Source: Candidatus Saccharimonadota bacterium (GTDB lineage: Bacteria; Patescibacteriota; Saccharimonadia; Saccharimonadales; Saccharimonadaceae). Taken from it: a stretch of DNA of 32,000 bases. Below are positions 1,345-12,431 of this stretch, piece after piece. The translations under genes and the position numbers were made by a program. The notes under the pieces are model-generated. The model made no database searches. It had not been told where the DNA came from and worked only from the letters and a program-made list of their open reading frames with translations. Positions within the stretch are counted from its first letter, which is position 1; every line of letters starts with the position of its first letter. The stretch is from positions 180,001 through 212,000 of the forward strand of contig JBDSDX010000001.1 in the NCBI GenBank assembly GCA_039920285.1. The letters are read 5' to 3'.

Positions 1345-1419
1345 TCCGACGTAGCTCAATGGTGGAGCAAGAAGCTGTTAACTTCGAGGCTGCTGGTTCG
1401 AGTCCAGCCGTCGGAGCCA
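1345..1419 (+). tRNA. tRNA-Asn: tRNA-Asn (anticodon GTT), CCA encoded
   Basis: 75-nt cloverleaf folded by hand. Acceptor TCCGACG/CGTCGGA; D arm GCTC-AATGGTG-GAGC; anticodon stem AGAAG/CTTCG with loop CTGTTAA. T arm GCTGG-TTCGAGT-CCAGC; discriminator G followed by CCA. Confidence 0.9.
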
Positions 1420-3030
1420 AGTTGATTTCAACAAGTTCAAGTCAAGAGTTTGACGATTTTGTGAAGATATAGCAGAAGACCCAACAGGGGTCTTTTTGCT
1501 TTTATGATACAAAGAGTCGTTATTCTCAAGCGGTTCTAACGCAAGAAATTGACGTTCTAGTATAGAGTAATTTTCTTTGATTGGGATAAGCCAGCTTACG
1601 GGGGTGAAGGTTAATTCTTTATGCAATAAGTCGAGTTTCTGACCGAACATTGTTATCAATTCTCTTCGTTCCGATATCTGACCGCCATTGAACTTGTCTT
1701 GTGCCTTGCGAATGAAGTTGAGCAACGTGATTGTCTCTTTCGCTCCCTTACTCGGGTTAGATTTCAAACTCTCTAGTTTAGATTTACCAGATTCCAACTC
1801 CCCTAAAAGTAATGTCTTCTGTTCTAGATATTCATAGTCATCGATTAGACCCCTTGTCCGCATGCCCAATAGCTCCTTGAGCTCGCTATTGATACGCTCA
1901 AGGCTCGATGAATGAGAATCTATATCTTTACTGCTTTGAGTCGTTTCTGTCTCATCAAGCTCTTTTAATGCGTCTTCCGCCCATTCCAAGAACTTTGGAT
2001 GAATGTTATATTGCCCAAGTTCACGTATTACTTGCTCTTCTAACTCCAATTCTGTAAATGCGGGTTGTTTGCATATGACATTTTTCTTGCGATGAGTACA
2101 GTGATAATAAGTGTAAGCCTTACCTTTCTTATATTTGATCTCGCCTGTTACTAGACATTCGCATTCACCGCATTTCATAAGACCGCGATAGGCGAGAGGT
2201 ATTTTTTCGTCTTTTGCTCGTGGACTTGGCTCACCCTGCAAACGGTTGACGATAATTTGCTGTTCTTTGAATGTAATTATTGGAGGATGTGAACCTTGCC
2301 TTAGTTCACCATGCCACATGAAGTAGCCAGTATAAAAAGGATTGCGCAAGATATTATATAAAGTTGTACGGATCATCTGATTTCCGCCAGAGTGTTTATG
2401 CTGAATAGAACGATATCCACGAACATTATTCAGATGATTCATGGTTTCAGTGATAGTAGCTCCTGCAAGCATCATATCGAAAGCCTCTCTAATCAATGAC
2501 ACACGCTCCTCGTCGATAATAATTGTTTGAGTGAGCAGGTCGTTTTTATAGCCTGCTGGAGGAGTTCCGGGGTAATGTCCTTTGTCTACCTTGCTGTTAA
2601 GTCCTCGTTTTGTATTTACGCTAAGATCTCGAACGTATTGATTCGCCGATCCAGTATCGACGCTTAATACGAGTGCGTTGTCGGTCGGTAAGTATAAACG
2701 ACTATACGTTCTTATCTCCTTGATCACCTCGTTTTGCAAAAGGTGGCTGATAAGACCTGAATCAACAGCGTTTCTAGATAAACGATCAACACTCCAACAT
2801 AAGATTGCATCAGCTTCACCTGCTTGAATCATTTTCATTACTTTTTCAAAGACAGGGCGTACGTAGGGTGCTTTTGCTGACTTTGATTCTGATTCAACGG
2901 CAACGACATTAAGACCGTAAGTAACCGCTAGGCGTTCCATCTCGCGGGTTTGATCGTCGATAGACTGAACTTGTCGTTCATTGCCTTCACTTGATTTGCG
3001 TACATACAATACGTGTCTTAATTCTTTCAT
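1378..3030 (-). CDS. large serine recombinase (integrase)
   Basis: The N-terminal resolvase-type catalytic domain (LYVRKSSEGNERQVQSIDDQ...SVDRLSRN) is followed by a recombinase domain. A zinc-ribbon (CGECECLVTGE...YYHCTHRKKNVIC) and a coiled-coil tail follow. SD AGGAGAAAAAG lies before the ATG. The last 14 codons read antisense through the att repeat and the tRNA. Confidence 0.9.
   Translation of the reverse strand: MKELRHVLYVRKSSEGNERQVQSIDDQTREMERLAVTYGLNVVAVESESKSAKAPYVRPVFEKVMKMIQAGEADAILCWSVDRLSRNAVDSGLISHLLQNEVIKEIRTYSRLYLPTDNALVLSVDTGSANQYVRDLSVNTKRGLNSKVDKGHYPGTPPAGYKNDLLTQTIIIDEERVSLIREAFDMMLAGATITETMNHLNNVRGYRSIQHKHSGGNQMIRTTLYNILRNPFYTGYFMWHGELRQGSHPPIITFKEQQIIVNRLQGEPSPRAKDEKIPLAYRGLMKCGECECLVTGEIKYKKGKAYTYYHCTHRKKNVICKQPAFTELELEEQVIRELGQYNIHPKFLEWAEDALKELDETETTQSSKDIDSHSSSLERINSELKELLGMRTRGLIDDYEYLEQKTLLLGELESGKSKLESLKSNPSKGAKETITLLNFIRKAQDKFNGGQISERRELITMFGQKLDLLHKELTFTPVSWLIPIKENYSILERQFLALEPLENNDSLYHKSKKTPVGSSAISSQNRQTLDLNLLKSTWLRRLDSNQQPRS
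1401..1420 (+). repeat. attL-like direct repeat (AGTCCAGCCGTCGGAGCCAA), equal to the 3' end of tRNA-Asn
   Basis: An identical 20-mer recurs at 10819-10838. Confidence 0.75.
1477..1500 (+). terminator. rho-independent terminator downstream of the tRNA (inside the recombinase 3' coding region)
   Basis: AGACCC-aacag-GGGTCT followed by TTTTGCTTTT. Confidence 0.55.
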
Positions 3031-3146: not shown

Positions 3147-3220
3147 CTCTTATTTTACTATTAATGATTGTTTTCTGATACGGGTGTGATATAACTACAG
3201 GCTACAGCTTAAGTAGTTAC

Positions 3221-3229
3221 TACTATAGG
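3221..3229 (-). promoter_or_regulatory. island-specific TACTATAGG motif (reads CCTATAGTA on the minus strand and contains a TATAGT -10-like box), upstream of int
   Basis: The same 9-mer recurs at 4668-4676, and 8 of its 9 nt at 3815-3823. All three sit upstream of minus-strand transcription units of the island. Confidence 0.3.
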
Positions 3230-3298
3230 TAGCTATTCCCATAGAATGATATTTATATCAAACCTTTTGTCATTTGTCCCATTGTCTTACTTTAGTAG

Positions 3299-3610
3299 TT
3301 ACTTCCAAAGGCGCTCCAGGGGATCGGACGGTGGAGAAGACGGTTTTTTGTTGTGCGCTTCAACCGTTTTTATACAAGCTGCATGAATTTGCACCCAGAG
3401 ATCGCCGCCCGTCTCAAATGTTATGTCTTTATAGTACTTTGCACCTACTTTGTGACCTGGTGTCGTGACGTAATAAACCTCACCCTCAATAACTGAGTCT
3501 TGTACTATCATTCCCATGATATGTATACCAAGATCGTGTATTGAAACTTTTAGCCTAAAACGCGCCTTATCGGATTTGCCGAGAATTGAGGCATCAATCT
3601 GATGTTTCAT
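3299..3610 (-). CDS. hypothetical protein with weak SpoVG-like pattern (103 aa)
   Basis: The ORF start overlaps the stop of the upstream 47-aa ORF (ATGA). The segment RFRLKVSIHDLGIHIMGMIVQDSVIEGEVYYVTTPGHKVGAKYYKDITFETGGDLWVQIHAACI loosely parallels SpoVG (RAIASITLD..FVVHDIRVIDG..GLFVAMPSKR...FRDITHP...IQDAV). Confidence 0.45.
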   Translation of the reverse strand: MKHQIDASILGKSDKARFRLKVSIHDLGIHIMGMIVQDSVIEGEVYYVTTPGHKVGAKYYKDITFETGGDLWVQIHAACIKTVEAHNKKPSSPPSDPLERLWK

Positions 3611-3750
3611 ACAGCTTTCCTTTTAAGGATGCGTAGAATACGAACTAAGTGATTAGCCTCAAGTCTTGATTGCTCTAGGTCAATTGAAATACCTAAGCAG
3701 GTTTTGTATAGCGTTTGATATTCTTTTATTTTTTCCTCTGACAACGTCAT
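3607..3750 (-). CDS. small hypothetical protein (47 aa, MTLSEEKIKEYQTLYKTCLGISIDLEQSRLEANHLVRILRILKRKAV), not in the ORF track
   Basis: I translated this from the reverse complement. SD AGAGGAAAA lies 5 nt before ATG 3750, and its TGA overlaps the next gene's ATG (4-nt ATGA overlap). Confidence 0.4.
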   Translation of the reverse strand: MTLSEEKIKEYQTLYKTCLGISIDLEQSRLEANHLVRILRILKRKAV

Positions 3751-3769
3751 ATAGTTTTCCTCTAATATG

Positions 3770-3783
3770 ACTGAGCGCTCAGT
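3770..3783. promoter_or_regulatory. perfect 14-bp palindrome ACTGAGCGCTCAGT, candidate operator in the leader of the 47-aa/103-aa operon
   Basis: The sequence is its own reverse complement. It is a GC-rich island in AT-rich intergenic DNA, between the TATAGT motif (3815-3823) and the start codon at 3750. Confidence 0.35.
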
Positions 3784-3814
3784 ACTTATTTAATATTTAG
3801 CATATGCATAAAGA

Positions 3815-3838
3815 AACTATAGGTCTATAAAACTATAG
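3815..3838 (-). promoter_or_regulatory. tandem AACTATAG(G) motifs (3815-3823 and 3831-3838), candidate promoter/operator
   Basis: AACTATAGGTCTATAAAACTATAG, a direct repeat with 16-nt period. The minus strand reads CCTATAGTT. Confidence 0.3.
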
Positions 3839-3845
3839 TGGTTTA

Positions 3846-4658
3846 CTATGACGGAATATTCTTTATCTGACTAAGGATGTCTGATAGAGTATCACGGTTC
3901 TTATTTTGAACATATTTACCATTTTTTGAATTATGTTTTACGAAGTCATCAAGTATGTGATTAATTTCTTCACCTTCAAGATAGAGCGGGGTTTTTAGTT
4001 CAATGATGTTGTCCTTGCATTGAAAGAATAGGTAGTTTCGTGCTTTCTTCTTAAACCCTGAGTTTCTTACGACACTTGATAATGAACCAATGGGTTGACC
4101 TGCACCTATTCCTTTACCTTTTATGTAGCCATCTTCATCACGTTCAACGACACGCTCAATAATGAGTTTTCTGAATACATCTATGGCTCCACGATTATTG
4201 AAACGCTTTAGTTCTAGTTGTTTCTTGTTAACCATTAAATAAAGTTTACGATCTTCAACATGGAGGTCGCATCGCAAATCGTTGTGACTAAACTCCTTTA
4301 TCCTGAGCTCAATAGAGCTGGCGAGGCTACGAATCCTATCATCATCTATCACTTGAATTCTCCACCGAGTATGAACACGCATTTTTGGTATCCCAATAAT
4401 AGGAGTTTTTACCCAGAGATAAAAGTCTTTATCACGAGATGGTATGATCTTTATATATTTCTTCGTCTGCAGGTATTGGAGTAAATTTGAAATATTATAC
4501 TCTTTTGTGCGACCAATCTTGAATCCGTCCGCGAATGGATAGAGATACATGCCTTCGGTTTTGTATCCCCATTCATCATGGGCTTCCAAGATTTTCTTCA
4601 AAACATACACAACATGTGTCGTCATCTCGAAAGGGTAGGTATTATATTGATATCCCAT
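3846..4658 (-). CDS. hypothetical protein (270 aa), no recognisable domain
   Basis: Long ORF with AT-rich codon usage typical of the island. A TATAGT box lies 10 nt upstream of the ATG. Confidence 0.6.
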   Translation of the reverse strand: MGYQYNTYPFEMTTHVVYVLKKILEAHDEWGYKTEGMYLYPFADGFKIGRTKEYNISNLLQYLQTKKYIKIIPSRDKDFYLWVKTPIIGIPKMRVHTRWRIQVIDDDRIRSLASSIELRIKEFSHNDLRCDLHVEDRKLYLMVNKKQLELKRFNNRGAIDVFRKLIIERVVERDEDGYIKGKGIGAGQPIGSLSSVVRNSGFKKKARNYLFFQCKDNIIELKTPLYLEGEEINHILDDFVKHNSKNGKYVQNKNRDTLSDILSQIKNIPS

Positions 4659-4667
4659 AACTATCTC

Positions 4668-4683
4668 TACTATAGGCTATAGG
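4668..4683 (-). promoter_or_regulatory. TACTATAGG-CTATAGG motif pair immediately upstream of the 270-aa gene
   Basis: TACTATAGGCTATAGG. The minus strand reads CCTATAGCCTATAGTA, with TATAGT 10 nt from ATG 4658. Confidence 0.3.
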
Positions 4684-4783
4684 GTAATTTTTTTTGCGCG
4701 CGCACTAAGTACAGAAATGAGAAGACCAAAAGGGAAGGTAGGGTGCAGTTAATTTCTAACTTCAAATAGCAGGGGGGTATAAT

Positions 4784-5000
4784 CTCTTGCTCGCATAGAG
4801 TATGAGCAAGTGCTGGAGGAATTAACAGAGGTGACTGTTTAAAAGATGTGATATGATTATAAAGTCTAAACCAGTTGAAGCGATACATTTCTATATGTGT
4901 CGAGTTTGTGTCTACAAATGGGCACCCACTCGACAAAACAGTTAGGGACGCAAATCTCTTCTGCTGGTTTAGACACCTAGAGCTGGGTGTCCTTTTATTT
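4784..5000 (+). ncRNA. candidate structured leader or small RNA ending in a terminator just upstream of the DUF805 gene
   Basis: A TATAAT box sits at 4778-4783. Helices are CTTGCTC/GAGCAAG (4786-4792 with 4804-4810) and a long-range 10-bp helix TCTAAACCAG/CTGGTTTAGA (4865-4874 with 4964-4973). The long-range helix encloses GTCGAGT/ACTCGAC (4899-4905 with 4928-4934). The terminator is GACACC-8 nt-GGTGTC + CTTTTATTT (4972-5000). Confidence 0.3.
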
Positions 5001-5042
5001 CTGGACTATCCTCTCTTATCTAATAAATCAAGGAGGTAACAA

Positions 5043-5471
5043 ATGAACATTCTAGGCATAAGGTCACCAAGGTTTAATCGATTAACTTATCTATTATCTA
5101 TATTCTTTGCGATGTTTGTTTTTGTGGGTCTGGGAGTTATTCTCAGTTCGTTATTTGATGTTGCAATGGGTGTTAAAACCGATAGTTTTGAACCTAACCC
5201 ATTCATCTTCTTGCCGTTCTTTCTGGGTTATTATCTGTATCTTATCATGGCTGTAGTAAAACGATTACATGATCTGGACATACATGGAGCATGGTCGATA
5301 GCTTTCGCGGTTGCGATATTTATTCCGATCGTGAACCTTATTACTGGTTTGTATCTTTTATTCACTGACGGTAACGCGGGTGATAATAAATACGGTAAGC
5401 GTCCTCAAGTTGTTCACGTAATGGGTGTTGTCATATGGAAAAAATCATTAGAGATTGGCCAAACAGTTTAG
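5043..5471 (+). CDS. DUF805-family inner-membrane protein
   Basis: Strong SD AAGGAGG (5030-5036). Four hydrophobic helices and the family-typical motif KRLHDLDIHGAW. Confidence 0.7.
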   Translation: MNILGIRSPRFNRLTYLLSIFFAMFVFVGLGVILSSLFDVAMGVKTDSFEPNPFIFLPFFLGYYLYLIMAVVKRLHDLDIHGAWSIAFAVAIFIPIVNLITGLYLLFTDGNAGDNKYGKRPQVVHVMGVVIWKKSLEIGQTV

Positions 5472-5659
5472 CGTAGACGGCTATGAGTGAAGATAGACTT
5501 GAGCTGCGCAGGAAACAAGATGCTCTATCGCTGGCTCAACTACTTTACGATATTTATGTTAAATAAGAGTAATCTATAAGCTGTGGTGCAAACTACTTAA
5601 CAGAGGTATAATGGTGACCAGAGTAGCGAAAGTTTGTAAACAGTTAGGTGTTTGAGGCG

Positions 5660-8600
5660 ATGAGTATAGAGAGCGACCGAGGATCAGAATGGCGCAGATG
5701 GGATTTGCACCTTCATACGAAGGACACTAATAAGAACGATCAGTTTAACGAGAGTGCTGATTTCGATGCGTATTGTGTCACGATGTTGAAAAAAGCCGTT
5801 GATAAGAATATCGCTGCTATTGGTATTACTGATTATTTCAGCATCGATAACTATAAAAGAGTCGTTGAATTTATCTCCAATATTGATAGTCGTACCGATT
5901 TCGATGCTGATCAAAAAAGATCAATAAAGAATATCCTAGTAGTACCGAATGTAGAGCTTCGGATGCTTCCAGTTACAGCACGCGGTAGCTTGGTTAATAT
6001 TCATTGTATTTTTAATCCTGCTATTGTGTCCAAGCTTGATAACAAATTTTTCGCATCCATTGAGTGTTCGGATGGCAGCACGACTCATAAAATGAATCTT
6101 CAGGGTCTGATAGATTTTGGTAAATCTTTTGATTCCGGACTAGATGAAAAAGCGGCATATAAAAAAGGTGTCGATAATTTCCACGTAGATCAAGCAAAGC
6201 TTCAAGAGCTATTAACTGATGAAGTGTTTGCTGAAAATACTATTGTAGTTGTAAGCAACTCTACTAACGACGGAGCGTCAGGTTTTCAAAAGCATTACGA
6301 TTCTTTTGAAGATATAGATCCCGGCAGTCTTGAAGGTGTGAGGAAGGCTATTTACTCTATCTCGCAAGCCATTTTCTCAAGTAATGAAGGCGATAGAAAA
6401 TATTTTCTCGGCTTAAGCAAAGATGATGAAGACGTTGTGAAGAAGAAGTGTGGGTCTTTAAAACCCTGTATTCATGGCAGTGACGCACACACAGAATCAA
6501 AACTTTTTGAACCAGATGAAGACAGATTTTGCTGGATAAAAGCGGACACTACGTTTGAAGGATTAAAACAAATAATATATGAACCAGCAGACAGGGTTTT
6601 CATTGGTTTGGAACCACCTGTTCTTGATCGGGTGAGGACTAATAAAACCAAATATATTGATATGTTAAATATTAATCACTTACCCGGTTATAGCGGAGCT
6701 CAGGGTGTTTGGTTTAAGGACGTCAGTATTAATTTAAATAAAGAACTTATAGCCATTATCGGCAATAAGGGCAGTGGAAAAAGCGCGCTATCAGACATAC
6801 TTGGAGTGCTTGGAAATACACATAACGCAGGCGCTAACCATGAGAACCTCTCCTTTCTAAGAGGTGGAAAAAAGTTAAAGTTTAGAAAAAAGGGCTACGC
6901 GGAGAATTTTGAAGCGGAGTTGGTATGGGAAGACGGTAGCGGTGCTGACACAAAAATTCCCTTAGATCATAACGTCGATCCTGACGACACGGAAAAGGTA
7001 AAATACCTACCGCAGAATTACTTTGAGAACTTGACCAATGATCTCGAAGGCGAAGGTTTTGATAAAACCTTGAAGAGTGTCATCTTTTTACATATACCCG
7101 AAGAGCAAAGATTAGGCGCACACAGTTTTGAAGAGCTAGAGGATAAAAAAGCAAAAAGCATTGAAGCAGATCTTGTTGTACTGAGAGACGAAGCTCATTC
7201 TATATCGGAAGAGACTATTAAGCTAGAAGCCAAGAAACATCCCAGCAGAAAGAAGCAGATTGAAAACGCAATTCTTGAAAAAAAGAACGAGCTTACCGAA
7301 CACGAAAAGATTAAGCCAGTAGAAATTCCTGATCCTGCAAAACAAGGAGATGAGGAAGCGGCTGAAGCAAAGAGCGAGAAATACGACCAACTAGAAAAAT
7401 TAAATGCTACGCAGGCTGGTGTACTTGGAAAAATTGCTCAGAAACGAACAGAACTTAATGGACTGACGCAAGATCAGGAAGAGCTTACTCAGCTCAAGAA
7501 TGCATTGTCCAGAGTTTCTAATCAGGCGGAAACATTTAAAATTGAAAATGCCACAGTCTTTGAGAAACACGGTCTTATTATCGATGAAATTATCGAAATT
7601 AAGGTTAAGAATGATCCTATTCTTTTAAAGATCCAGGAGAAGCAAGAATCAGTAAATAGCGCTAAGGCTGCACTACGTACAAAATCTGCCATTGATACCG
7701 ATCCAGAGCTAATTGGTAAGCCTGCAGAGCTCAAGGCAGCGTACGCAGCAAGTCTTCAAGTTCAAGAAGAAGATATTCGTACTCAGATTACTGAAATAAA
7801 GAAAGATCTATCACGGCCTGAAAAAGAATTCCAAGAGTATAAAGAAAAGCTCAAAAAATGGGGTGATAGGAAGCGAGAAATCGAAGGTTCAAAGAATCAG
7901 ATCAATAGTCTTAAGTTCTACGAAGAAGAGCTTAGATATATAACAAAAGAGCTTACGTCAACTCTTAACACGATGCGTGGAGAGCGGTTGAAAAAAACTA
8001 TCTCAATCTTTAAAAAGCAAAAAGAGATCGTAGAGTTATACCGTATTTTCAAGGAGTCGATAGATAAAGAAATTTCTAAAGACGAAGAGTTTTCCAAGAA
8101 ATTTAAGATGATCATAGATGTGAACTTTAAACTAGATCCTCTGTTTATGCGTAGCTTCTTGCAGTTTATTAATAAATCAAAAAGGGGCACCTTCTACGGT
8201 TCAAACGAGAATCACGTCTCAGAACTTTTCAGTGAGATGGATTTGTTAGATGAGAGTCATATTTCACAAATTCTTAACACAACTATTGAATGGCTTGAAT
8301 TGAATCAAAAGGAATCTAACGAAGACTTGAGGCCACAAGAAATATCAGACCAGATTGATAAGTTGCAGGAGTTCTACGATTTCTTATTCTATCTTGAATA
8401 CCTGAAGCCGGTTTATGAGTTGAAGCTCGATGGGAAAATACTTGATGAACTCTCGCCAGGTGAGAAAGGTACGTTATTGCTTGTTTTCTATCTAATGATC
8501 GATAAAGAGGACACTCCACTGATCATTGACCAACCAGAGGATAATCTAGATAACAAGAGTGTATTCCAAGTCTTGACACATTTTATTAAGACGGCTAAAA

Positions 8601-8824
8601 AACGCAGACAAATAATTATTGTTACTCACAACCCGAACCTTGCGGTTGGTGCAGATGCTGAGCAGATTATTTACGTTGAGCTCGACAAGAAAAGTAATAA
8701 GAATACTTTTACATTTGAAGTTGGTGCAATCGAAAACCCAAGAATCAATAAACAGCTGGTTGAGATACTTGAAGGAACTATGCCTGCATTTAACAGGAGA
8801 AAGCTTAGGTATAACAAATCATGA
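5660..8824 (+). CDS. PHP-domain phosphoesterase fused to a Rad50/SMC-like ABC ATPase with a long coiled-coil insertion
   Basis: PHP motifs are WDLHLHT (HxH codons at 5708-5716), GITDY, NVELR and HGSDAH (6473-6490). The ABC head has Walker A GNKGSGKS (6761-6784) and Q-loop YLPQNYF. About 400 aa of heptad-rich, K/E-rich coiled coil without Cys follows. Then come signature LSPGEKG (8450-8470), Walker B/D-loop LIIDQPEDNLD (8519-8551) and H-loop VTHNPN. ATG 5660 with GAGG (5654-5657) is preferred over the track's GTG 5648. Confidence 0.8.
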   Translation: MSIESDRGSEWRRWDLHLHTKDTNKNDQFNESADFDAYCVTMLKKAVDKNIAAIGITDYFSIDNYKRVVEFISNIDSRTDFDADQKRSIKNILVVPNVELRMLPVTARGSLVNIHCIFNPAIVSKLDNKFFASIECSDGSTTHKMNLQGLIDFGKSFDSGLDEKAAYKKGVDNFHVDQAKLQELLTDEVFAENTIVVVSNSTNDGASGFQKHYDSFEDIDPGSLEGVRKAIYSISQAIFSSNEGDRKYFLGLSKDDEDVVKKKCGSLKPCIHGSDAHTESKLFEPDEDRFCWIKADTTFEGLKQIIYEPADRVFIGLEPPVLDRVRTNKTKYIDMLNINHLPGYSGAQGVWFKDVSINLNKELIAIIGNKGSGKSALSDILGVLGNTHNAGANHENLSFLRGGKKLKFRKKGYAENFEAELVWEDGSGADTKIPLDHNVDPDDTEKVKYLPQNYFENLTNDLEGEGFDKTLKSVIFLHIPEEQRLGAHSFEELEDKKAKSIEADLVVLRDEAHSISEETIKLEAKKHPSRKKQIENAILEKKNELTEHEKIKPVEIPDPAKQGDEEAAEAKSEKYDQLEKLNATQAGVLGKIAQKRTELNGLTQDQEELTQLKNALSRVSNQAETFKIENATVFEKHGLIIDEIIEIKVKNDPILLKIQEKQESVNSAKAALRTKSAIDTDPELIGKPAELKAAYAASLQVQEEDIRTQITEIKKDLSRPEKEFQEYKEKLKKWGDRKREIEGSKNQINSLKFYEEELRYITKELTSTLNTMRGERLKKTISIFKKQKEIVELYRIFKESIDKEISKDEEFSKKFKMIIDVNFKLDPLFMRSFLQFINKSKRGTFYGSNENHVSELFSEMDLLDESHISQILNTTIEWLELNQKESNEDLRPQEISDQIDKLQEFYDFLFYLEYLKPVYELKLDGKILDELSPGEKGTLLLVFYLMIDKEDTPLIIDQPEDNLDNKSVFQVLTHFIKTAKKRRQIIIVTHNPNLAVGADAEQIIYVELDKKSNKNTFTFEVGAIENPRINKQLVEILEGTMPAFNRRKLRYNKS

Positions 8825-10002
8825 ATGTAAGCACGATTAAATGTACACACTGCGGAAAGGATATTGAACTTTCCGAAGCTCTTACTAAAGATATTGAAAA
8901 GACAGTGCTCGATGCTGAGCATAAAAAACATCTAGCTGAAATGGAAGAATTTCAAAAAGTATCTGACGAAAAAACACGCAAGTTAGTCGAAGAAGAAAAA
9001 TTAAAAGCTCAAGCGGATGCCACGTCGAAACTTGAACACAGATTAAAGCAGATGAGTGAAGAGTCCGAAGCGGATAAGCTAGAGGTGAAAGAAATGCGCG
9101 GACAGTTATCAACGCTTATGCAGGAGCTTCGTGAATCAAAGAAAAATGCTGCAAATGCAGAGCTTGAAATGCAGAAAAAATTGGCCGAAGAAGAACAGAA
9201 GATTCGCGAGGAAGCTCAAAAAGAGGCTGGTGAAAACCAACGCCTTAAATTAGCAGAAAAAGATAAACAAATTGAAGCTGCAAAGAAACAAGTTGAAGAA
9301 ATGCAGAGAAAGCTGAACCAGGGTTCTCAACAGATGCAAGGTGAAATCCTGGAACTTGATCTTGAGGACGCACTCGCAGCTGAATTCAAAGATGATGACA
9401 TCAATCCTGTAGAAAAGGGCATAAAAGGTGCAGATATAAAACAAACGGTACGAAGCCCACGTGGTACGGATTGCGGGGTGATTCTTTGGGAAATTAAACG
9501 TACCAAAGCATGGACTGAGGGCTGGGTTCAGAAACTAAAAGATGATTTAAGAGATACAAAAGCGAACATACCCGTCATTATTACAGAAGTTATGCCACGT
9601 GATATTAAATCCGATATTCATTTACACAATGGTGTTTGGGTTGTTAAGCCCGGCTCTGCACTCATTCTTGCTGGCTTGTTAAGGAAAGGTTTATTGGACG
9701 TAGGGCGTGAGAAAGCTATCGCTAAGCATCGAGATACGAGTGCGGATGCTCTTTACGGTTTTGTTACGAGCCATGAGTTCTCTCAGCAAATTGAAGCAAT
9801 GGTTGAAGTCTATACTGAAATGATAACTGATCTTACTAAAGAGAAAGTTGCGTTTGACAGAATTTGGGCAAAACGTGAAAGCCAAGCCAAGAAGTTACTT
9901 GGAAGTACAGCTAATATTATTGGAAGTATGCAAGGTCAGTTGGGCGCAGGTGCTTCACTTCGCATTAAAGGTCTTGAGCTTTTGGATTCTGGTGAGGATT
10001 AA
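8821..10002 (+). CDS. DUF2130-family protein: N-terminal CxxC, coiled coil, C-terminal RmuC-like PD-(D/E)xK nuclease fold
   Basis: The start overlaps the ATPase stop (ATGA at 8821-8824). N-terminus is IKCTHCGKDIELSEAL, followed by a K/E-rich coiled coil. The nuclease motif is GADIKQTV...GVILWEIKRTKAW (D codon 9433-9435, E-x-K 9490-9498). A conserved tail reads FVTSHEFSQQIEAMVEVY...WAKRESQ. Confidence 0.75.
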   Translation: MNVSTIKCTHCGKDIELSEALTKDIEKTVLDAEHKKHLAEMEEFQKVSDEKTRKLVEEEKLKAQADATSKLEHRLKQMSEESEADKLEVKEMRGQLSTLMQELRESKKNAANAELEMQKKLAEEEQKIREEAQKEAGENQRLKLAEKDKQIEAAKKQVEEMQRKLNQGSQQMQGEILELDLEDALAAEFKDDDINPVEKGIKGADIKQTVRSPRGTDCGVILWEIKRTKAWTEGWVQKLKDDLRDTKANIPVIITEVMPRDIKSDIHLHNGVWVVKPGSALILAGLLRKGLLDVGREKAIAKHRDTSADALYGFVTSHEFSQQIEAMVEVYTEMITDLTKEKVAFDRIWAKRESQAKKLLGSTANIIGSMQGQLGAGASLRIKGLELLDSGED

Positions 10003-10582
10003 GTTTCGGTAAGTCCTCTAAGGTATTGAGTTCATCAACAACTGCATTGAATATAGTATTAATGTCATCTGCACACTGATTCATATCGTTCTGCCACATT
10101 TTGATTAAATCCTTGCGCTTTGCCATGTTAGCGAGTTGCATAGTAGTTGTATATGTTATTGGTCTTGGTAAAATGTCATTTCCAAACTCAGGCACACCTA
10201 TTCTTTCATAATTTGACCCGTGAGCTGCACGGTGCCGCTTATGCATTTTTTCTTTATGGTACTTACTAGATAATGTATCTTCGTATTCTCTTAATTTTGT
10301 TGTAACAGTATATCCAGGCGGAAGTGTGTGGTATTTTCTAACATTTTTGACAAGGTCTATTATAAGATCTTCGTAAAACCGGCTATTGAGTATCAGAAAT
10401 GTTTCCATCATTGACTGCAACCAGTCAATATCTTGTTTTTTACGGTTTAACTCTCTGGAAAGCTTTTTCATCATCCGTACTATGTAGCGTATGTCACGAA
10501 TATAATAAATAGCATCATGACCATAAGATAAGCGTAAAGTCTGGATCGCGGGGCTCGTTTTCTTAGATATTGAGATTCGCAT
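9965..10582 (-). CDS. hypothetical alpha-helical protein (205 aa) with an RxxxxH (HEPN-like) motif
   Basis: The ORF is convergent with DUF2130, and their 3' ends overlap by 38 nt. The RHRAAH motif is encoded at 10220-10237. No other recognisable domain. Confidence 0.45.
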   Translation of the reverse strand: MRISISKKTSPAIQTLRLSYGHDAIYYIRDIRYIVRMMKKLSRELNRKKQDIDWLQSMMETFLILNSRFYEDLIIDLVKNVRKYHTLPPGYTVTTKLREYEDTLSSKYHKEKMHKRHRAAHGSNYERIGVPEFGNDILPRPITYTTTMQLANMAKRKDLIKMWQNDMNQCADDINTIFNAVVDELNTLEDLPKLNPHQNPKAQDL

Positions 10583-10627
10583 AGATATTCTCAGTATAGT
10601 ACTTTTGACTTACTTCTCATTTAATAA

Positions 10628-10659
10628 GGTTCTGACTTCATCTAGGACGCGGAGCCAAG
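10628..10659 (+). repeat. degenerate tRNA-3'-end-like repeat R1 (GGTTCTGACTTCATCTAGGACGCGGAGCCAAG)
   Basis: It shares GGTTC...CGGAGCCAAG with tRNA-Asn 1395-1421, and the last 10 nt are identical. A terminator hairpin follows directly. Confidence 0.5.
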
Positions 10660-10700
10660 AAAAAAGCCGCAGTCCTTTAGGACTTAGGCTTTTTTCTTTG
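10655..10700 (+). terminator. long terminator hairpin following R1
   Basis: CAAGAAAAAAGCC..AGTCC-tuta-GGACT..GGCTTTTTTCTT(T)G, with an inner 5-bp and an outer ~13-bp helix and a U-rich 3' arm. Confidence 0.5.
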
Positions 10701-10712
10701 TTGTGTTGCTAG

Positions 10713-10761
10713 CCCGACCAGCAACCGCAGCGCGGTAGCGATGCATGGTTGCGGTTCGATA
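10713..10761 (+). repeat. 49-nt hairpin repeat, copy 1 (degenerate)
   Basis: CCCGACCAGCAACCGCAGCGCGGTAGCGATGCATGGTTGCGGTTCGATA is identical to 14714-14762 at 44 of 49 positions. Confidence 0.7.
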
Positions 10762-10818
10762 GCGAGGAGCAGGACAGGAAAGTTTACTTTCCTGAACGTG
10801 ACGATGGTATATCTGGAT

Positions 10819-10838
10819 AGTCCAGCCGTCGGAGCCAA
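10819..10838 (+). repeat. attR-like direct repeat R2, exact copy of the tRNA-Asn 3' terminal 20 nt
   Basis: AGTCCAGCCGTCGGAGCCAA matches 1401-1420 at 20 of 20 positions. Confidence 0.75.
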
Positions 10839-10850
10839 ATTTGAATCACT

Positions 10851-10873
10851 AGCCGATGCGTCGGCTATTTTTT
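10851..10873 (+). terminator. rho-independent terminator following R2
   Basis: AGCCGA-tgcg-TCGGCT followed by ATTTTTT. Confidence 0.6.
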
Positions 10874-10967
10874 GTATTGACTGATATGGTTTCTTTCATT
10901 TTACGGTTCGAAAACCCTGAGAACAGTGTTATAGTATGGCGAGAACAACAGGGTGGCAGGAAACATT

Positions 10968-12260
10968 ATGGCTTTTAGAGACCCCCTTAGAAATTACTCG
11001 ACAATTGATGGTATTAATTACCTCGATCCAAAGATTGAAAACTTTCTTGAACTTGATGCACCAGAGAGCTTCAAGAATTCAATCAATGTGCTACTACCAA
11101 TTCGCAACGCCCTACGAGTCGCAAAGACGATTGGTAGGATCGGCGAGATCCCGACCACTGAATATTATATGCAGACTATTCAGTGGCTAAATAAACAGAT
11201 GGCGCTTGGAGCATGGATAGGCGTCCCCCAGCTTACTAGCTACAATGACATAACGGAAGATGTAGCTTCAAACTTTAGTGGGCATGCTGCTAATGTTCTT
11301 TCTAATTTGGTTAACCAATCGCTTTTTCAACAGATCCAGTTGATGCAGGGTGTCTTGGAAAATACTATAGTACAAGGAATCATTGACGACATCGAGGCCC
11401 CCATTGAGGAGAATTTCAAACAGACATTGAGAGATGAACAATCAGCTGTTACGGTATCCCTCGACGCTACACAGGAGGAGAAAGCGAGACAGCTGACTGC
11501 GCTGTTTAATGAACAGATGCAGCAGGTCAGAACTGCTGGAAGTGACGCTACATCCTCATTTGAGCAAGCAAGAGCACTCGCTAGTTGGAGTGAATTTTAC
11601 GCAGGACGTGTACATCAGTATGAGCTCGCTTTGTACGGTAAAGTATGGCCAGTTAATGCTACTGCAAGAAAGCTTTCGACATATAGAAAGTATAGAAAAT
11701 CCTTGTCAATGAAAGAACGAGCTAGAACTATCCTTGCCACAATTATTGCGGCACTTCGTTGCTTACGCCAAGGTTGGGCAATTGTATATTCCAAGATTAG
11801 CTCGTATTCAGGACGTAGGTTTCTTTGGTTTGTACTCATTGCGCTGAGCATAATTCTGATCATGGCCGTAAATCTGCTCTCCATATATGGAACGAAAACT
11901 TTCCTTGGAATAAACGTAGCTCCCTTGAAAGCCACTCATAAAGACACGCTCTTATTTGCTAAGGCCGCCACATATCTTGCTGTACTTTTTATTCCTACAA
12001 TCGGATACTCATTTGCGAATAAGAATTACCGGATATACAGCAACTTATTAGAACAGTACCGTCATAGAGAGATTGTTGCCAAGACAATTCAGGGCATACT
12101 AGCTCGGCCTAGAGGTGATGACGATGATGAGGCTGTTAGAAAAGAGCTCGCTAATGTAGCCTCCGTAGCACTATTCGAACAAAAGACTGTCGGACACCTG
12201 TCGAAGCAGGAAGCAAACTCTGCTTCAATCATTGATATACTGCGGACTTTTAGATCTTAA
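10968..12260 (+). CDS. hypothetical membrane protein (~430 aa): soluble helical N-terminal half, two or three TM helices, helical C-terminal tail
   Basis: ATG 10968 with AGGAAA 4 nt upstream, and an extended -10 TGTTATAGT at 10927-10935. TM segments are FLWFVLIALSIILIMAVNLLSIY and AATYLAVLFIPTIGYSF. No domain recognised. Confidence 0.6.
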   Translation: MAFRDPLRNYSTIDGINYLDPKIENFLELDAPESFKNSINVLLPIRNALRVAKTIGRIGEIPTTEYYMQTIQWLNKQMALGAWIGVPQLTSYNDITEDVASNFSGHAANVLSNLVNQSLFQQIQLMQGVLENTIVQGIIDDIEAPIEENFKQTLRDEQSAVTVSLDATQEEKARQLTALFNEQMQQVRTAGSDATSSFEQARALASWSEFYAGRVHQYELALYGKVWPVNATARKLSTYRKYRKSLSMKERARTILATIIAALRCLRQGWAIVYSKISSYSGRRFLWFVLIALSIILIMAVNLLSIYGTKTFLGINVAPLKATHKDTLLFAKAATYLAVLFIPTIGYSFANKNYRIYSNLLEQYRHREIVAKTIQGILARPRGDDDDEAVRKELANVASVALFEQKTVGHLSKQEANSASIIDILRTFRS

Positions 12261-12305
12261 TAGGAACTGAGAGTTCCCACATGCTTACAATTTGATTTTT
12301 AATTC

Positions 12306-12337
12306 GGTTCCAATTTATCCCAGTGTGGTGAGCCAAG
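12306..12337 (+). repeat. degenerate tRNA-3'-end-like repeat R3 (GGTTCCAATTTATCCCAGTGTGGTGAGCCAAG)
   Basis: Same 32-nt format as R1 and R5, with the shared frame GGTT...CCAG...GAGCCAAG. An imperfect A/T-rich hairpin follows at about 12338-12386. Confidence 0.45.
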
Positions 12338-12381
12338 CTTAAGCATTATGAAAGACTTCTTAGGAAGCTTTTTTCTTATGC

Positions 12382-12409
12382 TTGCACCAAGACCCTAAAC
12401 GTTTATAAT
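12382..12409 (+). promoter_or_regulatory. promoter TTGCAC-16-TATAAT for the 124-aa gene
   Basis: TTGCAC at 12382-12387 and TATAAT at 12404-12409. SD AAGGAG lies at 12421-12426 before ATG 12432. Confidence 0.5.
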
Positions 12410-12431
12410 TCTTACAAACTAAGGAGCGTAC

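What the first reader, a model, noticed from the sequence alone, without database searches (positions are those of the whole stretch)
5660..10002. Two-gene operon: PHP phosphoesterase fused to a Rad50/SMC-like ABC ATPase, translationally coupled to a DUF2130 (RmuC-like PD-(D/E)xK) nuclease. Candidate novel defence system.
Seen directly: one 1055-aa ORF combines a complete PHP metal-dependent phosphoesterase motif set (HxH at 5708-5716, GITDY, HGSDAH at 6473-6490) with a split ABC ATPase head. The head has Walker A at 6761-6784, Q-loop YLPQ, signature LSPGEKG at 8450-8470, Walker B/D-loop at 8519-8551 and H-loop VTHNPN. Its two halves are separated by about 400 aa of Cys-free coiled coil. Its TGA overlaps the ATG of a DUF2130 protein (ATGA at 8821-8824). 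That protein has a CxxC N-terminus, a coiled coil and a D...ExK nuclease core (9433-9498). Established knowledge: PHP domains act as nucleases/phosphoesterases (for example the exonuclease of PolX and DnaE). Rad50/SbcC-type ABC ATPases partner with a separate Mre11/SbcD phosphoesterase. Several defence systems (Lamassu, Wadjet, Gabija, PARIS) pair SMC- or ABC-type ATPases with nucleases. Inference: the large protein looks like a single-chain SbcCD analogue in which PHP replaces the calcineurin-type nuclease. Coupling to a second nuclease, placement as the main cargo of a tRNA-integrated island, and AT-rich composition all argue for a DNA-sensing anti-phage or anti-plasmid system. As far as I recall, a single-gene PHP+ATPase defence protein (Ppl) was reported from prophage hotspots. 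Whether this protein is homologous, and whether the obligate DUF2130 partner is new, cannot be decided without searches.
Basis: partly seen in the sequence, partly recalled or inferred. Interest (0 to 1): 0.85.

Follow-up and report, generated by a model that had tools for sequence, protein, structure and literature searches.

The report
Ppl-like PHP-ATPase with DUF2130 nuclease partner
A small mobile island in a Saccharibacteria genome carries a large nuclease-ATPase of an already named but unstudied family (TrlF, a cousin of the anti-phage protein Ppl), coupled to a second nuclease (DUF2130) that turns out to be a swappable add-on for several such defence ATPases.

Summary
All ORFs, motifs and the ATGA overlap are at the stated coordinates. 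The PHP fold is undetectable by single-sequence Pfam but is confirmed by a structure model and Foldseek.

Gene A is not a new kind of protein. It is a full-length member of NCBIfam "TrlF family AAA-like ATPase" (672 bits, cutoff 350). This family is large and found across many phyla, with 782 plasmid records. It is a sister of Ppl but not a member (90 bits, cutoff 1000).

TrlF usually stands alone or sits inside type I or type III R-M operons. DUF2130 is adjacent in only 10 of 124 loci, so it is not obligate.

The link is nevertheless real and asymmetric. All 10 DUF2130 genes in those loci are immediate neighbours of TrlF. Among sampled DUF2130 homologues at least 60% identical to gene B, 5 of 5 directly follow an ABC-ATPase nuclease (3 TrlF, 2 P2-Old type). 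One plasmid has DUF2130 directly upstream of GajA and GajB. Partner identities are shuffled (TrlF 30% with DUF2130 73%; TrlF 69% with DUF2130 26%).

Best reading: a Ppl-like defence nuclease with a facultative, modular PD-(D/E)xK accessory nuclease, on a 9.4-kb serine-recombinase island at tRNA-Asn. This is a new variant of a known kind. No function has been tested.

The parts
1345..1419 (+). tRNA-Asn (GTT), the integration target of the island
   Evidence: ARAGORN; Rfam tRNA, 65 bits
1401..1423 (.). attL-side direct repeat (3' end of the tRNA)
   Evidence: the repeat finder family D5, 22/23 identical to 10819-10841
1378..3030 (-). Large serine recombinase (Resolvase + Recombinase + Zn_ribbon_recom). 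Its 3' end overlaps the tRNA 3' part.
   Evidence: Pfam. An 87%-identical homologue sits in the syntenic island L085.
3299..4936 (-). Three small or medium island-backbone ORFs (3299-3610, 3846-4658, 4670-4936) with no family match
   Evidence: No Pfam, NCBIfam, PHROGs or PADLOC hits. They are 71%, 26% and 73% conserved in L085.
5043..5471 (+). DUF805 membrane-type protein directly upstream of gene A
   Evidence: Pfam DUF805, 2.5e-16
5660..8824 (+). Gene A: TrlF-family PHP + ABC ATPase protein, 1054 aa
   Evidence: NCBIfam NF045780, 672.5 bits against cutoff 350, full length. Identical NCBI protein named TrlF.
5660..6640 (+). Gene A PHP phosphoesterase domain (about residues 1-327), with HxH 5708-5716 and SDAH 6479-6490
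   Evidence: AF2 pLDDT 89. Foldseek top 22 hits are all PHP, E down to 1.7e-7. Invariant H17, H19, D58, E99, D275, H277.
6662..7069 (+). Gene A ABC ATPase N-lobe (Walker A 6761-6784, Q-loop 7004-7015)
   Evidence: Motifs. Profile hits to MacB, LolD, Rad50 and SMC heads. Pfam SMC_N and AAA_21.
7088..8434 (+). Gene A Cys-free helical (coiled-coil-like) insert between the two ATPase lobes
   Evidence: Composition profile. The Pfam SMC_N match is split across residues 353-1005. Not modelled.
8435..8824 (+). Gene A ABC ATPase C-lobe: signature 8450-8470, Walker B/D-loop 8519-8551 (with Gln 8531-8533 in place of the catalytic Glu), H-loop 8621-8638
8821..10002 (+). Gene B: DUF2130 protein, 393 aa; its start overlaps the gene A stop (ATGA 8821-8824)
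   Evidence: Pfam PF09903, 4e-55; sequence
8842..9384 (+). Gene B N-terminal CxxC knuckle (8842-8853) followed by one helix of about 170 residues (residues 19-188)
   Evidence: AF2 model. C8 and C11 invariant.
9385..9726 (+). Gene B PD-(D/E)xK-type nuclease core (D205 at 9433-9435; E224-x-K226 at 9490-9498)
   Evidence: Invariant D205, E224, K226. Foldseek BFVD hits to Mrr-like and restriction endonucleases, E to 1e-8. Weak PDB hits to Bax1, MspJI, SPARDA and DdmD nucleases.
9965..10582 (-). Convergent ORF of 205 aa with no family match; overlaps the gene B 3' end by 38 nt
10819..10841 (.). attR-side direct repeat, followed by a terminator-like hairpin at 10850-10867

Best explanation
Gene A is a member of the TrlF family. 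It has an N-terminal PHP metal-dependent phosphoesterase domain fused to an ABC-type ATPase head, and the two lobes of that head are separated by a helical insert of about 450 residues. TrlF is a sister family of the validated single-gene anti-phage protein Ppl.

Gene B is a DUF2130 protein. It has a CxxC knuckle, a helix of about 170 residues, and a PD-(D/E)xK nuclease core.

The two genes are co-transcribed and translationally coupled. They make up nearly half of a 9.4-kb island integrated by a large serine recombinase into tRNA-Asn of a Saccharimonadales (CPR) genome.

Proposed function (inferred, not shown): an anti-phage or anti-plasmid nuclease module. By analogy with Ppl and Gabija/OLD, the ABC head acts as a nucleotide-gated DNA sensor or clamp rather than a motor. 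The family-wide Gln in place of the Walker-B catalytic Glu fits a binding switch. The PHP domain would act as a 3'-5' exonuclease on invader DNA. DUF2130 would be a facultative accessory endonuclease, docked through its long helix, that makes the nicks or ends the exonuclease needs. It may also add double-strand cleavage.

The same accessory is plugged into P2-Old-type and Gabija ABC-ATPase nucleases elsewhere.

Sub-confidences:
- Family identities: about 0.95.
- Defence or anti-MGE role: about 0.7.
- Genuine functional coupling of A and B: about 0.7.
- The specific 'end-maker plus resecting exonuclease' mechanism: about 0.3.
For: Identity:
- NCBIfam TrlF 672.5 bits against cutoff 350.
- PHP fold.
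- ABC motifs.
- DUF2130 4e-55, with an intact D...ExK motif in all subtypes and nuclease-fold matches.

Relation to Ppl:
- PADLOC Ppl 5e-21; NCBIfam Ppl 89.9 bits.
- Ppl is a single-gene PHP+ATPase defence protein (PMC11482910).
- Ppl is described as an NTP-inhibited ssDNA 3'-5' exonuclease that needs 3'-OH ends (PMC12904381).

Defence-type context of TrlF:
- 28 of 124 loci have an R-M subunit as the immediate same-strand neighbour, in mod-TrlF-res or hsdS-TrlF-hsdR arrangements.
- Other neighbours include GmrSD, PvuRts1I-like, Z1/NgoFVII, RhuM, Abi, HEPN and TA genes.
- 782 plasmid records carry it.

Coupling of A and B:
- ATGA overlap, and no terminator between the genes.
- All 10 DUF2130 genes found anywhere in the 124 TrlF loci are immediate neighbours of TrlF.
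- 5 of 5 sampled DUF2130 homologues at least 60% identical to B directly follow TrlF (3) or Old-type ATPase-TOPRIM (2), with junctions ranging from an 8-nt overlap to a 10-nt gap.
- DUF2130-GajA-GajB occurs on an Aliarcobacter plasmid.
- TrlF-RelE-HTH-DUF2130 occurs on a Bradyrhizobium plasmid.
- Shuffled partner identities argue for repeated independent assembly.

Island: direct repeats plus a serine recombinase, and a syntenic island in L085.

Invariant Q958 after the Walker B Asp.
Against: - No experiment exists for any TrlF or DUF2130 protein in the searchable literature.
- About 90% of TrlF loci lack DUF2130, including relatives 70-74% identical. TrlF therefore clearly works without it.
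- DUF2130 also occurs alone on plasmids and in a housekeeping-like chromosomal context.
- DUF2130 also occurs in phage replication and recombination modules with no ATPase. The family is therefore not intrinsically a defence partner.
- No physical interaction was modelled.
- The coiled-coil nature of the gene A insert rests on composition only.
- PADLOC 2.0 contains no TrlF-specific model, and gene B gets only a coiled-coil-type LmuB hit.
- The DUF2130-side sample is small: 7 look-ups.
Confidence: 0.55

Rival explanations
1. Sequestered-effector (PARIS-like or abortive-infection) model. The two proteins do form a complex, but DUF2130 is the real toxic effector nuclease. The TrlF ATPase scaffold holds it inactive and releases or activates it when a phage trigger or a fall in nucleotide levels is sensed. 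The outcome would be indiscriminate DNA cleavage and cell death rather than targeted resection.
For: DUF2130 pairs with three different ABC-ATPase families that share only the ATPase head: TrlF, Old and GajA. That is what one expects if the head is the docking or regulatory platform. Weak AriA, HEC-01A and AbiLi-type ATPase hits come from the C-lobe. The Gln in place of the catalytic Glu suggests a switch.
Against: TrlF, Old and GajA each already carry their own nuclease domain and mostly occur without DUF2130, so an extra effector is not required. No TOPRIM AriB-like partner is present. No toxicity data exist.
Confidence: 0.2
2. Independent neighbours. TrlF acts alone as a Ppl-like single-gene system, as it does in most genomes. 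DUF2130 is a separate nuclease associated with mobile elements that merely lands in the same variable hotspots.
For: TrlF lacks DUF2130 in about 90% of loci. DUF2130 is solitary on several plasmids, in one chromosomal context and in phage contigs.
Against: There is a 4-nt start/stop overlap here and in L127-129, and the junction ranges from an 8-nt overlap to a 10-nt gap in L125, L130, L163 and L166. All 10 DUF2130 genes in the TrlF loci are the immediate neighbour, never elsewhere in flanks of up to 10 kb. Assuming about 15 genes per flank, chance is roughly (2/15)^9, or about 1e-8 (inference). The combination recurs in CPR, Campylobacterota, Acidobacteriota and Alphaproteobacteria with shuffled partners.
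Confidence: 0.15
3. Element-maintenance or recombination function. DUF2130, with or without the ATPase, serves the mobile element itself, for example by processing DNA during excision, transfer or replication, rather than defending the host. Gene A would then act as an SbcCD-like repair or processing enzyme.
For: A serine recombinase abuts DUF2130 in L127-131 and L163, and those recombinases are 69-86% identical while the ATPase differs. Distant DUF2130 homologues sit in phage modules with PolA, a Cas4-like nuclease, VRR-NUC and SNF2, and near relaxase and ParA on pMLa.
Against: In the window the recombinase start is 2.6 kb upstream of gene A and about 5.8 kb from gene B, at the other end of the island. 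Pairs occur with no recombinase in L083, L125 and L157. TrlF is embedded in R-M operons and defence-type regions, not repair operons. No Mre11/SbcD partner or zinc hook is present.
Confidence: 0.1

Closest known systems
TrlF family AAA-like ATPase (NCBIfam NF045780)
   Same: Full-length match, 672.5 bits against cutoff 350. The identical protein is already named so by NCBI. It shares the PHP domain, the conserved linker (CWIKADxTFEGLKQIxYEP) and the split ABC head.
   Different: Nothing at the protein level; it is a member. I found no published characterisation of the family, and the origin of the name could not be traced. Most members lack the DUF2130 neighbour.
Ppl (single-gene PHP + ATPase anti-phage protein of E. 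coli; NCBIfam NF042955, PADLOC PDLC02208)
   Same: Same two-domain logic (PHP nuclease plus NTPase in one chain) and detectable homology (PADLOC 5e-21, NCBIfam 89.9 bits), strongest in the ATPase C-lobe. Ppl is reported to be an NTP-inhibited 3'-5' ssDNA exonuclease that needs 3'-OH ends (PMC12904381).
   Different: It fails the curated Ppl cutoff (1000 bits). It is longer (1054 aa against about 880-890 positions in the Ppl models). Here it is coupled to a second nuclease gene, whereas Ppl works as a single gene.
Gabija (GajA OLD-type ABC-ATPase/TOPRIM nuclease + GajB UvrD helicase) and P2 Old
   Same: All are ABC-ATPase heads fused to a nuclease and found in defence islands. The same DUF2130 accessory is found directly next to GajA-GajB and to Old-type proteins.
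   Different: Gene A has PHP at the N-terminus instead of TOPRIM at the C-terminus. No helicase partner is present.
PARIS (AriA ABC ATPase + AriB TOPRIM nuclease)
   Same: It is a two-gene ATPase-plus-nuclease arrangement. Weak AriA-model hits come from the C-lobe.
   Different: The partner nuclease is PD-(D/E)xK, not TOPRIM. The ATPase itself carries a nuclease domain. The hits are partial and weak.
Rad50-Mre11 / SbcCD
   Same: The ABC head is split by a long helical insert and combined with a metal-dependent phosphoesterase. Profile hits reach Rad50 and SMC heads.
   Different: The nuclease is PHP and is fused. The insert has no CxxC zinc hook, as there is no Cys after residue 291. Pfam SMC_N is below its gathering score. 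The context is a mobile island, not a repair locus.
PrrC / RloC anticodon nucleases
   Same: These are ABC-ATPase-plus-nuclease proteins. PrrC sits inside a type I R-M operon, as many TrlF genes do. RloC has a Rad50-like coiled coil with a CxxC hook (PMC2610378, PMC3458546).
   Different: They are RNA (tRNA) nucleases with a C-terminal ACNase domain. No homology beyond the ABC head was tested or seen.

Membership tests
TrlF family (NCBIfam NF045780) | Whole-protein HMM score at or above the curated cutoff (350 bits), with end-to-end coverage | tested here: met
   672.5 bits; residues 7-1052 match model positions 1-944 of 944
TrlF family (NCBIfam NF045780) | N-terminal PHP-fold domain with conserved metal ligands | tested here: met
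   AF2 plus Foldseek; invariant H17, H19, D58, E99, D275, H277
TrlF family (NCBIfam NF045780) | ABC-type ATPase motifs: Walker A, Q-loop, signature, Walker B/D-loop, H-loop | tested here: met
   All are present and conserved across 67 homologues. The catalytic Glu position is Gln family-wide.
Ppl (NCBIfam NF042955 / PADLOC PDLC02208) | Whole-protein HMM score at or above the curated cutoff (1000 bits) | tested here: not met
   89.9 bits, best stretch residues 927-1047. PADLOC Ppl 5e-21 is partial.
Ppl (NCBIfam NF042955 / PADLOC PDLC02208) | PHP and NTPase domains in a single polypeptide | tested here: met
Ppl (NCBIfam NF042955 / PADLOC PDLC02208) | Confers phage resistance as a single gene; NTP-inhibited 3'-5' exonuclease | not testable with these tools
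   Needs experiments. The property is reported for E. coli Ppl (PMC12904381, PMC11482910).
DUF2130 (Pfam PF09903 / COG4487) | Pfam score above the gathering threshold (26.7 bits) | tested here: met
   187.3 bits, 4e-55
DUF2130 (Pfam PF09903 / COG4487) | PD-(D/E)xK catalytic signature and fold | tested here: met
   D205, E224, K226 are invariant. BFVD Foldseek hits to Mrr-like and restriction endonucleases, E to 1e-8. PDB hits are only weak. The family is classified as PD-(D/E)xK in PMC3424549.
RmuC (Pfam PF02646) | Match to the RmuC profile | tested here: not met
   No RmuC hit at E<=0.1 in the Pfam scan of gene B
Rad50 / SbcC (SMC-like) | Pfam SMC_N at or above the gathering score | tested here: not met
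   23.5 bits against 40. The head is similar to Rad50 and SMC only at E 4e-5 to 1e-3.
Rad50 / SbcC (SMC-like) | CxxC zinc hook at the apex of the coiled coil | tested here: not met
   Gene A has no Cys after residue 291
Rad50 / SbcC (SMC-like) | Separate Mre11/SbcD calcineurin-type nuclease partner | tested here: not met
   No island ORF has such a domain
OLD / Gabija GajA | C-terminal TOPRIM nuclease domain | tested here: not met
   No TOPRIM hit for gene A. For contrast, L130 and L166 score as PADLOC Old, and L130 hits Pfam OLD-like TOPRIM in my own scan. L156 scores as GajA at 2e-190.
PARIS (AriA/AriB) | AriA-type ATPase together with a TOPRIM AriB | tested here: not met
   AriA hits are partial (5.5e-8, residues 928-1007). 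No AriB is present.
Lamassu (LmuB SMC + LmuA effector) | LmuB-type SMC protein with an LmuA effector | tested here: not met
   The only hit is a 3.7e-5 LmuB match to the helical region of gene B

The most novel reading that the evidence does not exclude
DUF2130 proteins, at least the clade at least 60% identical to gene B and the '26% type' found next to TrlF, may be a dedicated, exchangeable accessory nuclease for ABC-ATPase defence nucleases (TrlF, P2 Old, Gabija GajA). It would dock via a long zinc-knuckle-tipped coiled coil. This would define a previously unrecognised class of two-component systems. The accessory would generate the DNA ends that end-dependent exonucleases such as Ppl otherwise obtain only from phage-encoded nucleases. 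It would also be one of few candidate defence modules in reduced CPR genomes.
Probability: 0.3. Interest if true: 0.65.

Novelty: new variant of a known kind. Interest (0 to 1): 0.5.

Why it matters
Ppl-type PHP-ATPases and OLD/Gabija nucleases are established anti-phage proteins whose activation depends on nucleotide levels and DNA ends. Suppose the uncharacterised nuclease family DUF2130 is a plug-in partner for three such ATPase families. That would give DUF2130 its first functional context. It would add a testable two-gene variant to the Ppl/TrlF group. TrlF itself is abundant on clinical Klebsiella and E. coli plasmids yet unstudied. It would also document defence cargo moving on small serine-recombinase islands in Saccharibacteria, organisms with tiny genomes and few recognised immune systems. 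If the link is only positional, the finding reduces to an already annotated TrlF gene in a mobile island.

Tried and rejected
1. Single-sequence detection of PHP failed. Pfam at E<=10 on residues 1-337 and phmmer against the PDB gave nothing. A profile against the PDB gave only non-significant PHP hits, E 0.76 and 1.3. The question was settled by structure instead.
2. tblastn with gene B alone missed divergent DUF2130 neighbours; for example, L083 was missed. I replaced it with an iterated HMM.
3. The origin of the TrlF name and any characterisation were not found. 'TrlF' returns only unrelated TRLFS spectroscopy papers, and no paper combines TrlF with phage.
4. The DUF2130, COG4487 and PF09903 literature has no paper placing the family in a defence context.
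5. PHROGs gave no hit for any island protein, including A and B.
6. NCBIfam, Pfam and PADLOC gave nothing for the five other island ORFs except DUF805.
7. Rfam found only the tRNA in 1-16000.
8. The sigma-70 scan found no plus-strand promoter in front of gene A, so the operon start is not defined.
9. The primary paper on the Ppl mechanism is not in the searchable library. Only a review statement could be cited.
10. Rejected idea: gene A as a Ppl orthologue, because it fails the curated cutoff.
11. Rejected idea: gene B as RmuC, because there is no profile match.
12. Rejected idea: DUF2130 as an obligate TrlF partner, because it is adjacent in only 10 of 124 loci.
13. Rejected idea: DUF2130 as a phage-only or defence-only family, because its contexts are mixed.

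Full report
**1. Observation**

The window holds the two ORFs as described. Gene A runs 5660-8824 on the plus strand and encodes 1054 aa. Its ATG 5660 has a GAGG 4 nt upstream, although the mechanical ORF begins at GTG 5648. Gene B runs 8821-10002 on the plus strand and encodes 393 aa. The two genes overlap in ATGA at 8821-8824.

Gene A has no cysteine after residue 291. Residues 477-812 are 54-75% E/K/Q/L/A/R/I with few Pro or Gly. No terminator-like site lies between the genes.

The exact protein sequences are on record. NCBI calls them 'MAG: TrlF family AAA-like ATPase' and 'DUF2130 domain-containing protein', from a Candidatus Saccharimonadales bacterium on a 795-kb contig. The window therefore comes from a CPR/Saccharibacteria genome.

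**2. Gene A**

Pfam sees only weak AAA_21 and SMC_N matches and no PHP domain. NCBIfam gives an end-to-end hit to NF045780, 'TrlF family AAA-like ATPase', at 672.5 bits against a curated cutoff of 350. Two sister families score far below their cutoffs: Spaf_1101 at 115 against 475, and Ppl at 89.9 against 1000. The best model in PADLOC 2.0 is Ppl (5e-21, mainly the C-terminal lobe), followed by mad3, HEC-01A and AriA-type ATPases. No TrlF-specific model seems to exist there.

The PHP claim needed more work. Single-sequence searches of residues 1-337 against Pfam and the PDB were empty. A profile of 11 N-termini hit two PHP-fold proteins, but without significance. Five of the 11 N-termini hit PF02811 individually, with a best E-value of 2.7e-6. 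An AlphaFold2 model built with a 67-sequence alignment reached pLDDT 89.3 and pTM 0.89. Its top 22 Foldseek matches in the PDB are all PHP domains, each with probability 1.00 and a best E-value of 1.7e-7. They include YcdX-like phosphoesterases, RNase AM, and the PHP domains of Pol III alpha and PolC. H17, H19, D58, E99, D275 and H277 are invariant or nearly invariant. The PHP domain is therefore confirmed.

The ATPase head resembles both ABC-transporter NBDs and Rad50/SMC heads. One detail stands out. The residue after the Walker B aspartate is normally the catalytic glutamate. Here it is an invariant glutamine (LIID-Q-PEDNLD) across the family. By inference, this suggests a nucleotide-binding switch rather than a fast hydrolase.

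**3. Gene B**

Gene B matches Pfam DUF2130 at 4e-55. DUF2130 is classed in the PD-(D/E)xK superfamily with unknown function (PMC3424549).

The AF2 model (pLDDT 76) shows a CxxC beta-hairpin and then a single helix spanning residues 19-188. An alpha/beta core follows, and then C-terminal helices.

Foldseek against the PDB gives only weak hits, the best at 1.3e-2. They are mostly to PD-(D/E)xK nucleases: Bax1, MspJI, the SPARDA nuclease, DdmD, EcoT38I and FAN1. Against predicted viral structures there are 8 hits at E<=1e-3. The named ones are Mrr-like or restriction endonucleases, and the rest are uncharacterised. Weaker hits include PD-(D/E)xK, VRR-NUC and Holliday-junction resolvase proteins.

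C8, C11, D205, E224 and K226 are conserved in every DUF2130 subtype examined. No RmuC profile match was listed. An exhaustive search finds 3,929 cluster representatives at E<=1e-3. The 150 listed are mostly stand-alone proteins of about 370-550 aa, with a few shorter ones, and none has the length of an ATPase fusion.

**4. Island**

The 3' end of tRNA-Asn (1401-1423) is repeated 22/23 at 10819-10841. A large serine recombinase lies at the tRNA-proximal end. GC falls to 36-39% inside the island. Genes A and B together take 4.3 of the 9.4 kb. The other island ORFs have no family match except DUF805. A metagenomic contig, L085, carries the same backbone next to a 76%-identical TrlF. Its recombinase is 87% identical and two of its small ORFs are 71-73% identical. 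That contig ends at the TrlF stop codon.

**5. Co-occurrence from the TrlF side**

I collected 124 TrlF loci:
- 80 species representatives from GTDB.
- 40 metagenome contigs.
- 4 by exact look-up.

An iterated DUF2130 HMM finds a DUF2130 gene in 10 of them: L010, L037, L077, L083/L084, L101, L102, L103, L110 and L112. That is 8 of 87 loci with at least 1.3 kb on both sides, and 3 of 64 in the GTDB set. The four closest full-length relatives with readable flanks, at 70-74% identity (L081, L082, L086, L104), have no DUF2130. DUF2130 is therefore not obligate for TrlF.

The commonest same-strand immediate neighbours of TrlF are R-M subunits:
- Type III Mod-like methylase, 12 loci.
- Type III Res-like subunit, 8 loci.
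- HsdR, 7 loci.
- HsdS, 6 loci.

In all, 28 of 124 loci have an R-M neighbour, typically arranged as mod-TrlF-res or hsdS-TrlF-hsdR. Other neighbours include GmrSD, PvuRts1I-like, NgoFVII/Z1, RhuM, DUF1016, Abi, HEPN and TA genes. TrlF is present on 782 plasmid records, mostly conjugative Klebsiella and Escherichia plasmids. The records sampled are nearly all annotated as TrlF. It is rare in cultured phages. This is the context expected of a defence gene, not of a housekeeping repair gene.

**6. Co-occurrence from the DUF2130 side**

All 10 DUF2130 genes found in the TrlF loci are the immediate neighbour of TrlF, and 9 are on the same strand. None lies elsewhere in the flanks of up to 10 kb. 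Assuming roughly 15 genes per flank, chance placement would be about (2/15)^9, or roughly 1e-8. This figure is my own estimate.

I looked up seven close DUF2130 homologues. The ATPases upstream were classified.

| Homologue | Identity to gene B | Gene directly upstream |
|---|---|---|
| P0128 | 73% | TrlF |
| P0132 | 71% | TrlF |
| P0166 | 60% | TrlF |
| P0138 | 71% | P2-Old-type ATPase-TOPRIM (PADLOC Old 3e-63) |
| P0158 | 61% | P2-Old-type ATPase-TOPRIM (PADLOC Old 6e-51) |
| P0214 | 56% | none (solitary) |
| P0235 | 56% | none (solitary) |

For the five paired homologues, the junction with the upstream gene ranges from an 8-nt overlap to a 10-nt gap.

The plasmid contexts I inspected are varied:
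- A Bradyrhizobium plasmid carries TrlF-RelE/ParE-HTH-DUF2130. Bradyrhizobium accounts for 31 of the 45 plasmid records with DUF2130, but I inspected only this one.
- An Aliarcobacter plasmid carries DUF2130 directly upstream of a bona fide Gabija pair, GajA at 2e-190 and GajB at 3e-270.
- A Chryseobacterium plasmid has it between a giant helicase and a type I R-M system.
- Three other plasmids carry it alone.

In 24 viral contigs, homologues 30-42% identical have no TrlF-like gene nearby. In the loci where neighbours recur, those neighbours are replication and recombination genes: family A polymerase, a Cas4-like nuclease, a methylase, VRR-NUC and SNF2.

**7. Shuffling**

Identity of the paired proteins to A and to B does not co-vary:

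| Locus | ATPase identity to A | DUF2130 identity to B |
|---|---|---|
| L110 | 67% | 71% |
| L102 | 59% | 60% |
| L112 | 69% | 26% |
| L083 | 56% | 26% |
| L125 | 30% | 73% |
| L163 | 26% | 60% |
| L166 | Old-type ATPase | 71% |

At least two DUF2130 subtypes therefore pair with TrlF, and one subtype pairs with very different ATPases. Repeated independent assembly of the same two-part combination is the classic sign of a functional link. In L127-131 and L163 a serine recombinase abuts DUF2130. Those recombinases are 69-86% identical to each other while the ATPase upstream is TrlF or Old. Small recombinase-borne elements thus spread these modules.

**8. Mechanism**

What is shown:
- A PHP fold with intact ligands.
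- An ABC head with all motifs, plus the Glu-to-Gln change.
- A PD-(D/E)xK core with an intact D...ExK motif.
- Translational coupling of the two genes.
- The genomic associations described above.

What comes from the literature: Ppl is a single-gene PHP+ATPase defence protein (PMC11482910). A review describes it as a 3'-5' ssDNA exonuclease that is inhibited by bound NTPs and needs 3'-OH ends made by phage homing endonucleases (PMC12904381). PrrC is the precedent for an ABC-ATPase nuclease embedded in, and silenced by, a type I R-M locus (PMC2610378).

What I infer: TrlF works like Ppl, as a nucleotide-gated PHP exonuclease on invader DNA. Where DUF2130 is present, it is an accessory endonuclease that supplies nicks or ends, or adds double-strand cleavage. 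It would dock through its long helix. Its N-terminal CxxC could pair in a dimer to bind zinc, reminiscent of a Rad50 or RloC hook.

A PARIS-like alternative cannot be excluded. In that model the ATPase sequesters DUF2130 as the toxic effector.

**9. Comparison and novelty**

Gene A is a member of TrlF and a relative of Ppl, but not a member of Ppl. It is only an analogue of SbcCD/Rad50-Mre11, because it has no zinc hook, no Mre11 partner and a sub-threshold SMC_N score.

Neither TrlF nor DUF2130 appears in the searchable literature in a defence context.

The new element is the recurrent, modular association of DUF2130 with ABC-ATPase defence nucleases (TrlF, Old, Gabija), plus this instance in a CPR genome. 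I rate the finding a new variant of a known kind, with interest 0.5. The gene pair is real and the association is non-trivial and testable. However, the main protein is already named, its relative Ppl has been studied mechanistically, the partner is facultative, and nothing functional has been tested.

Noticed in passing
window 10620-10658, 12298-12336, 14628-14666; also 10713-10761 and 14714-14762: Three degenerate copies of a tRNA 3'-half-like motif (GGTTC...GAGCCAA), each followed by a hairpin and a T run. A 49-nt segment is repeated at 90% identity 4 kb apart. These may be decayed att remnants of earlier integrations at tRNA-Asn, which would make a tandem island array. Rfam sees nothing there.
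   Followed up: partly
window 8528-8542 (D957-Q958-P959-E960-D961 of gene A): The residue after the Walker B Asp is normally the catalytic Glu of ABC ATPases. It is an invariant Gln in the TrlF family (14/14, and at least 90% of 67 homologues), with an invariant Glu two residues later. This suggests a nucleotide-binding switch or a non-canonical hydrolysis mechanism.
   Followed up: partly
window 1378-1419: The 3' end of the serine recombinase ORF on the minus strand, including its stop codon, lies inside the tRNA-Asn gene. It extends past the 23-nt direct repeat, so the last codons of the recombinase are read from tRNA sequence.
   Followed up: no
L156 5989-11195 (Aliarcobacter butzleri plasmid NZ_CP104379.1): A bona fide Gabija pair (GajA 2e-190, GajB 3e-270) has a DUF2130 gene directly upstream on the same strand, 1 nt apart. 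A DNA methyltransferase and a RhuM gene follow. This may be a three-gene Gabija variant.
   Followed up: partly
L130 4356-7179; L166 3302-6146: P2-Old-type ATPase-TOPRIM genes (PADLOC Old 6e-51 and 3e-63) are each followed immediately by a DUF2130 gene 61-71% identical to gene B. The junction is a 4-nt gap in L130 and an 8-nt overlap in L166. This Old plus DUF2130 pairing is not described in the literature I could search.
   Followed up: partly
L157 2319-7272 (Bradyrhizobium ottawaense plasmid NZ_CP150124.1): The locus reads TrlF, RelE/ParE toxin, HTH antitoxin, DUF2130, so a toxin-antitoxin pair is inserted between the two partners. Bradyrhizobium accounts for 31 of the 45 plasmid records with DUF2130.
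   Followed up: partly
L087-L090, L097-L099 (mod-TrlF-res); L027, L028, L047, L076, L108 (hsdS-TrlF-hsdR): TrlF is often embedded between the subunit genes of type III or type I R-M systems, the position occupied by PrrC in the prr locus. This hints that some TrlF proteins are regulated by, or back up, the flanking R-M enzyme.
   Followed up: partly
TrlF homologues P0072, P0098, P0080, P0079 against the window protein (alignment A2): The N-terminal PHP domain comes in at least three length and sequence variants (about 272 to 340 aa). The linker CWIKADPTFEGLKQIIYEPEDRVFIG and the ATPase stay conserved, which indicates domain-level swapping within the family.
   Followed up: partly
L132-L155 (IMG/VR viral contigs): Distant DUF2130 homologues (30-42% identical) have no TrlF-like gene nearby. 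Their recurrent neighbours, each shared by 3-6 of the 24 loci, are phage replication and recombination genes: family A DNA polymerase, a Cas4/RecB-like nuclease, a DNA methylase, VRR-NUC and an SNF2 helicase.
   Followed up: partly
L164 521-6272: A 56%-identical DUF2130 sits alone downstream of dnaE (Pol III alpha) and a flavin reductase. The same protein was read on 13 contigs, with 9 similar places not shown. This is a possible housekeeping-type paralogue.
   Followed up: no
window 12930-14519 and 17974-19105: Outside the island there is an ArsR-type regulator, an AHSA1/SRPBCC protein and a metallo-beta-lactamase-fold protein, all on the minus strand. There is also an overlapping DUF488 plus uracil-DNA-glycosylase-superfamily gene pair on the plus strand.
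   Followed up: no
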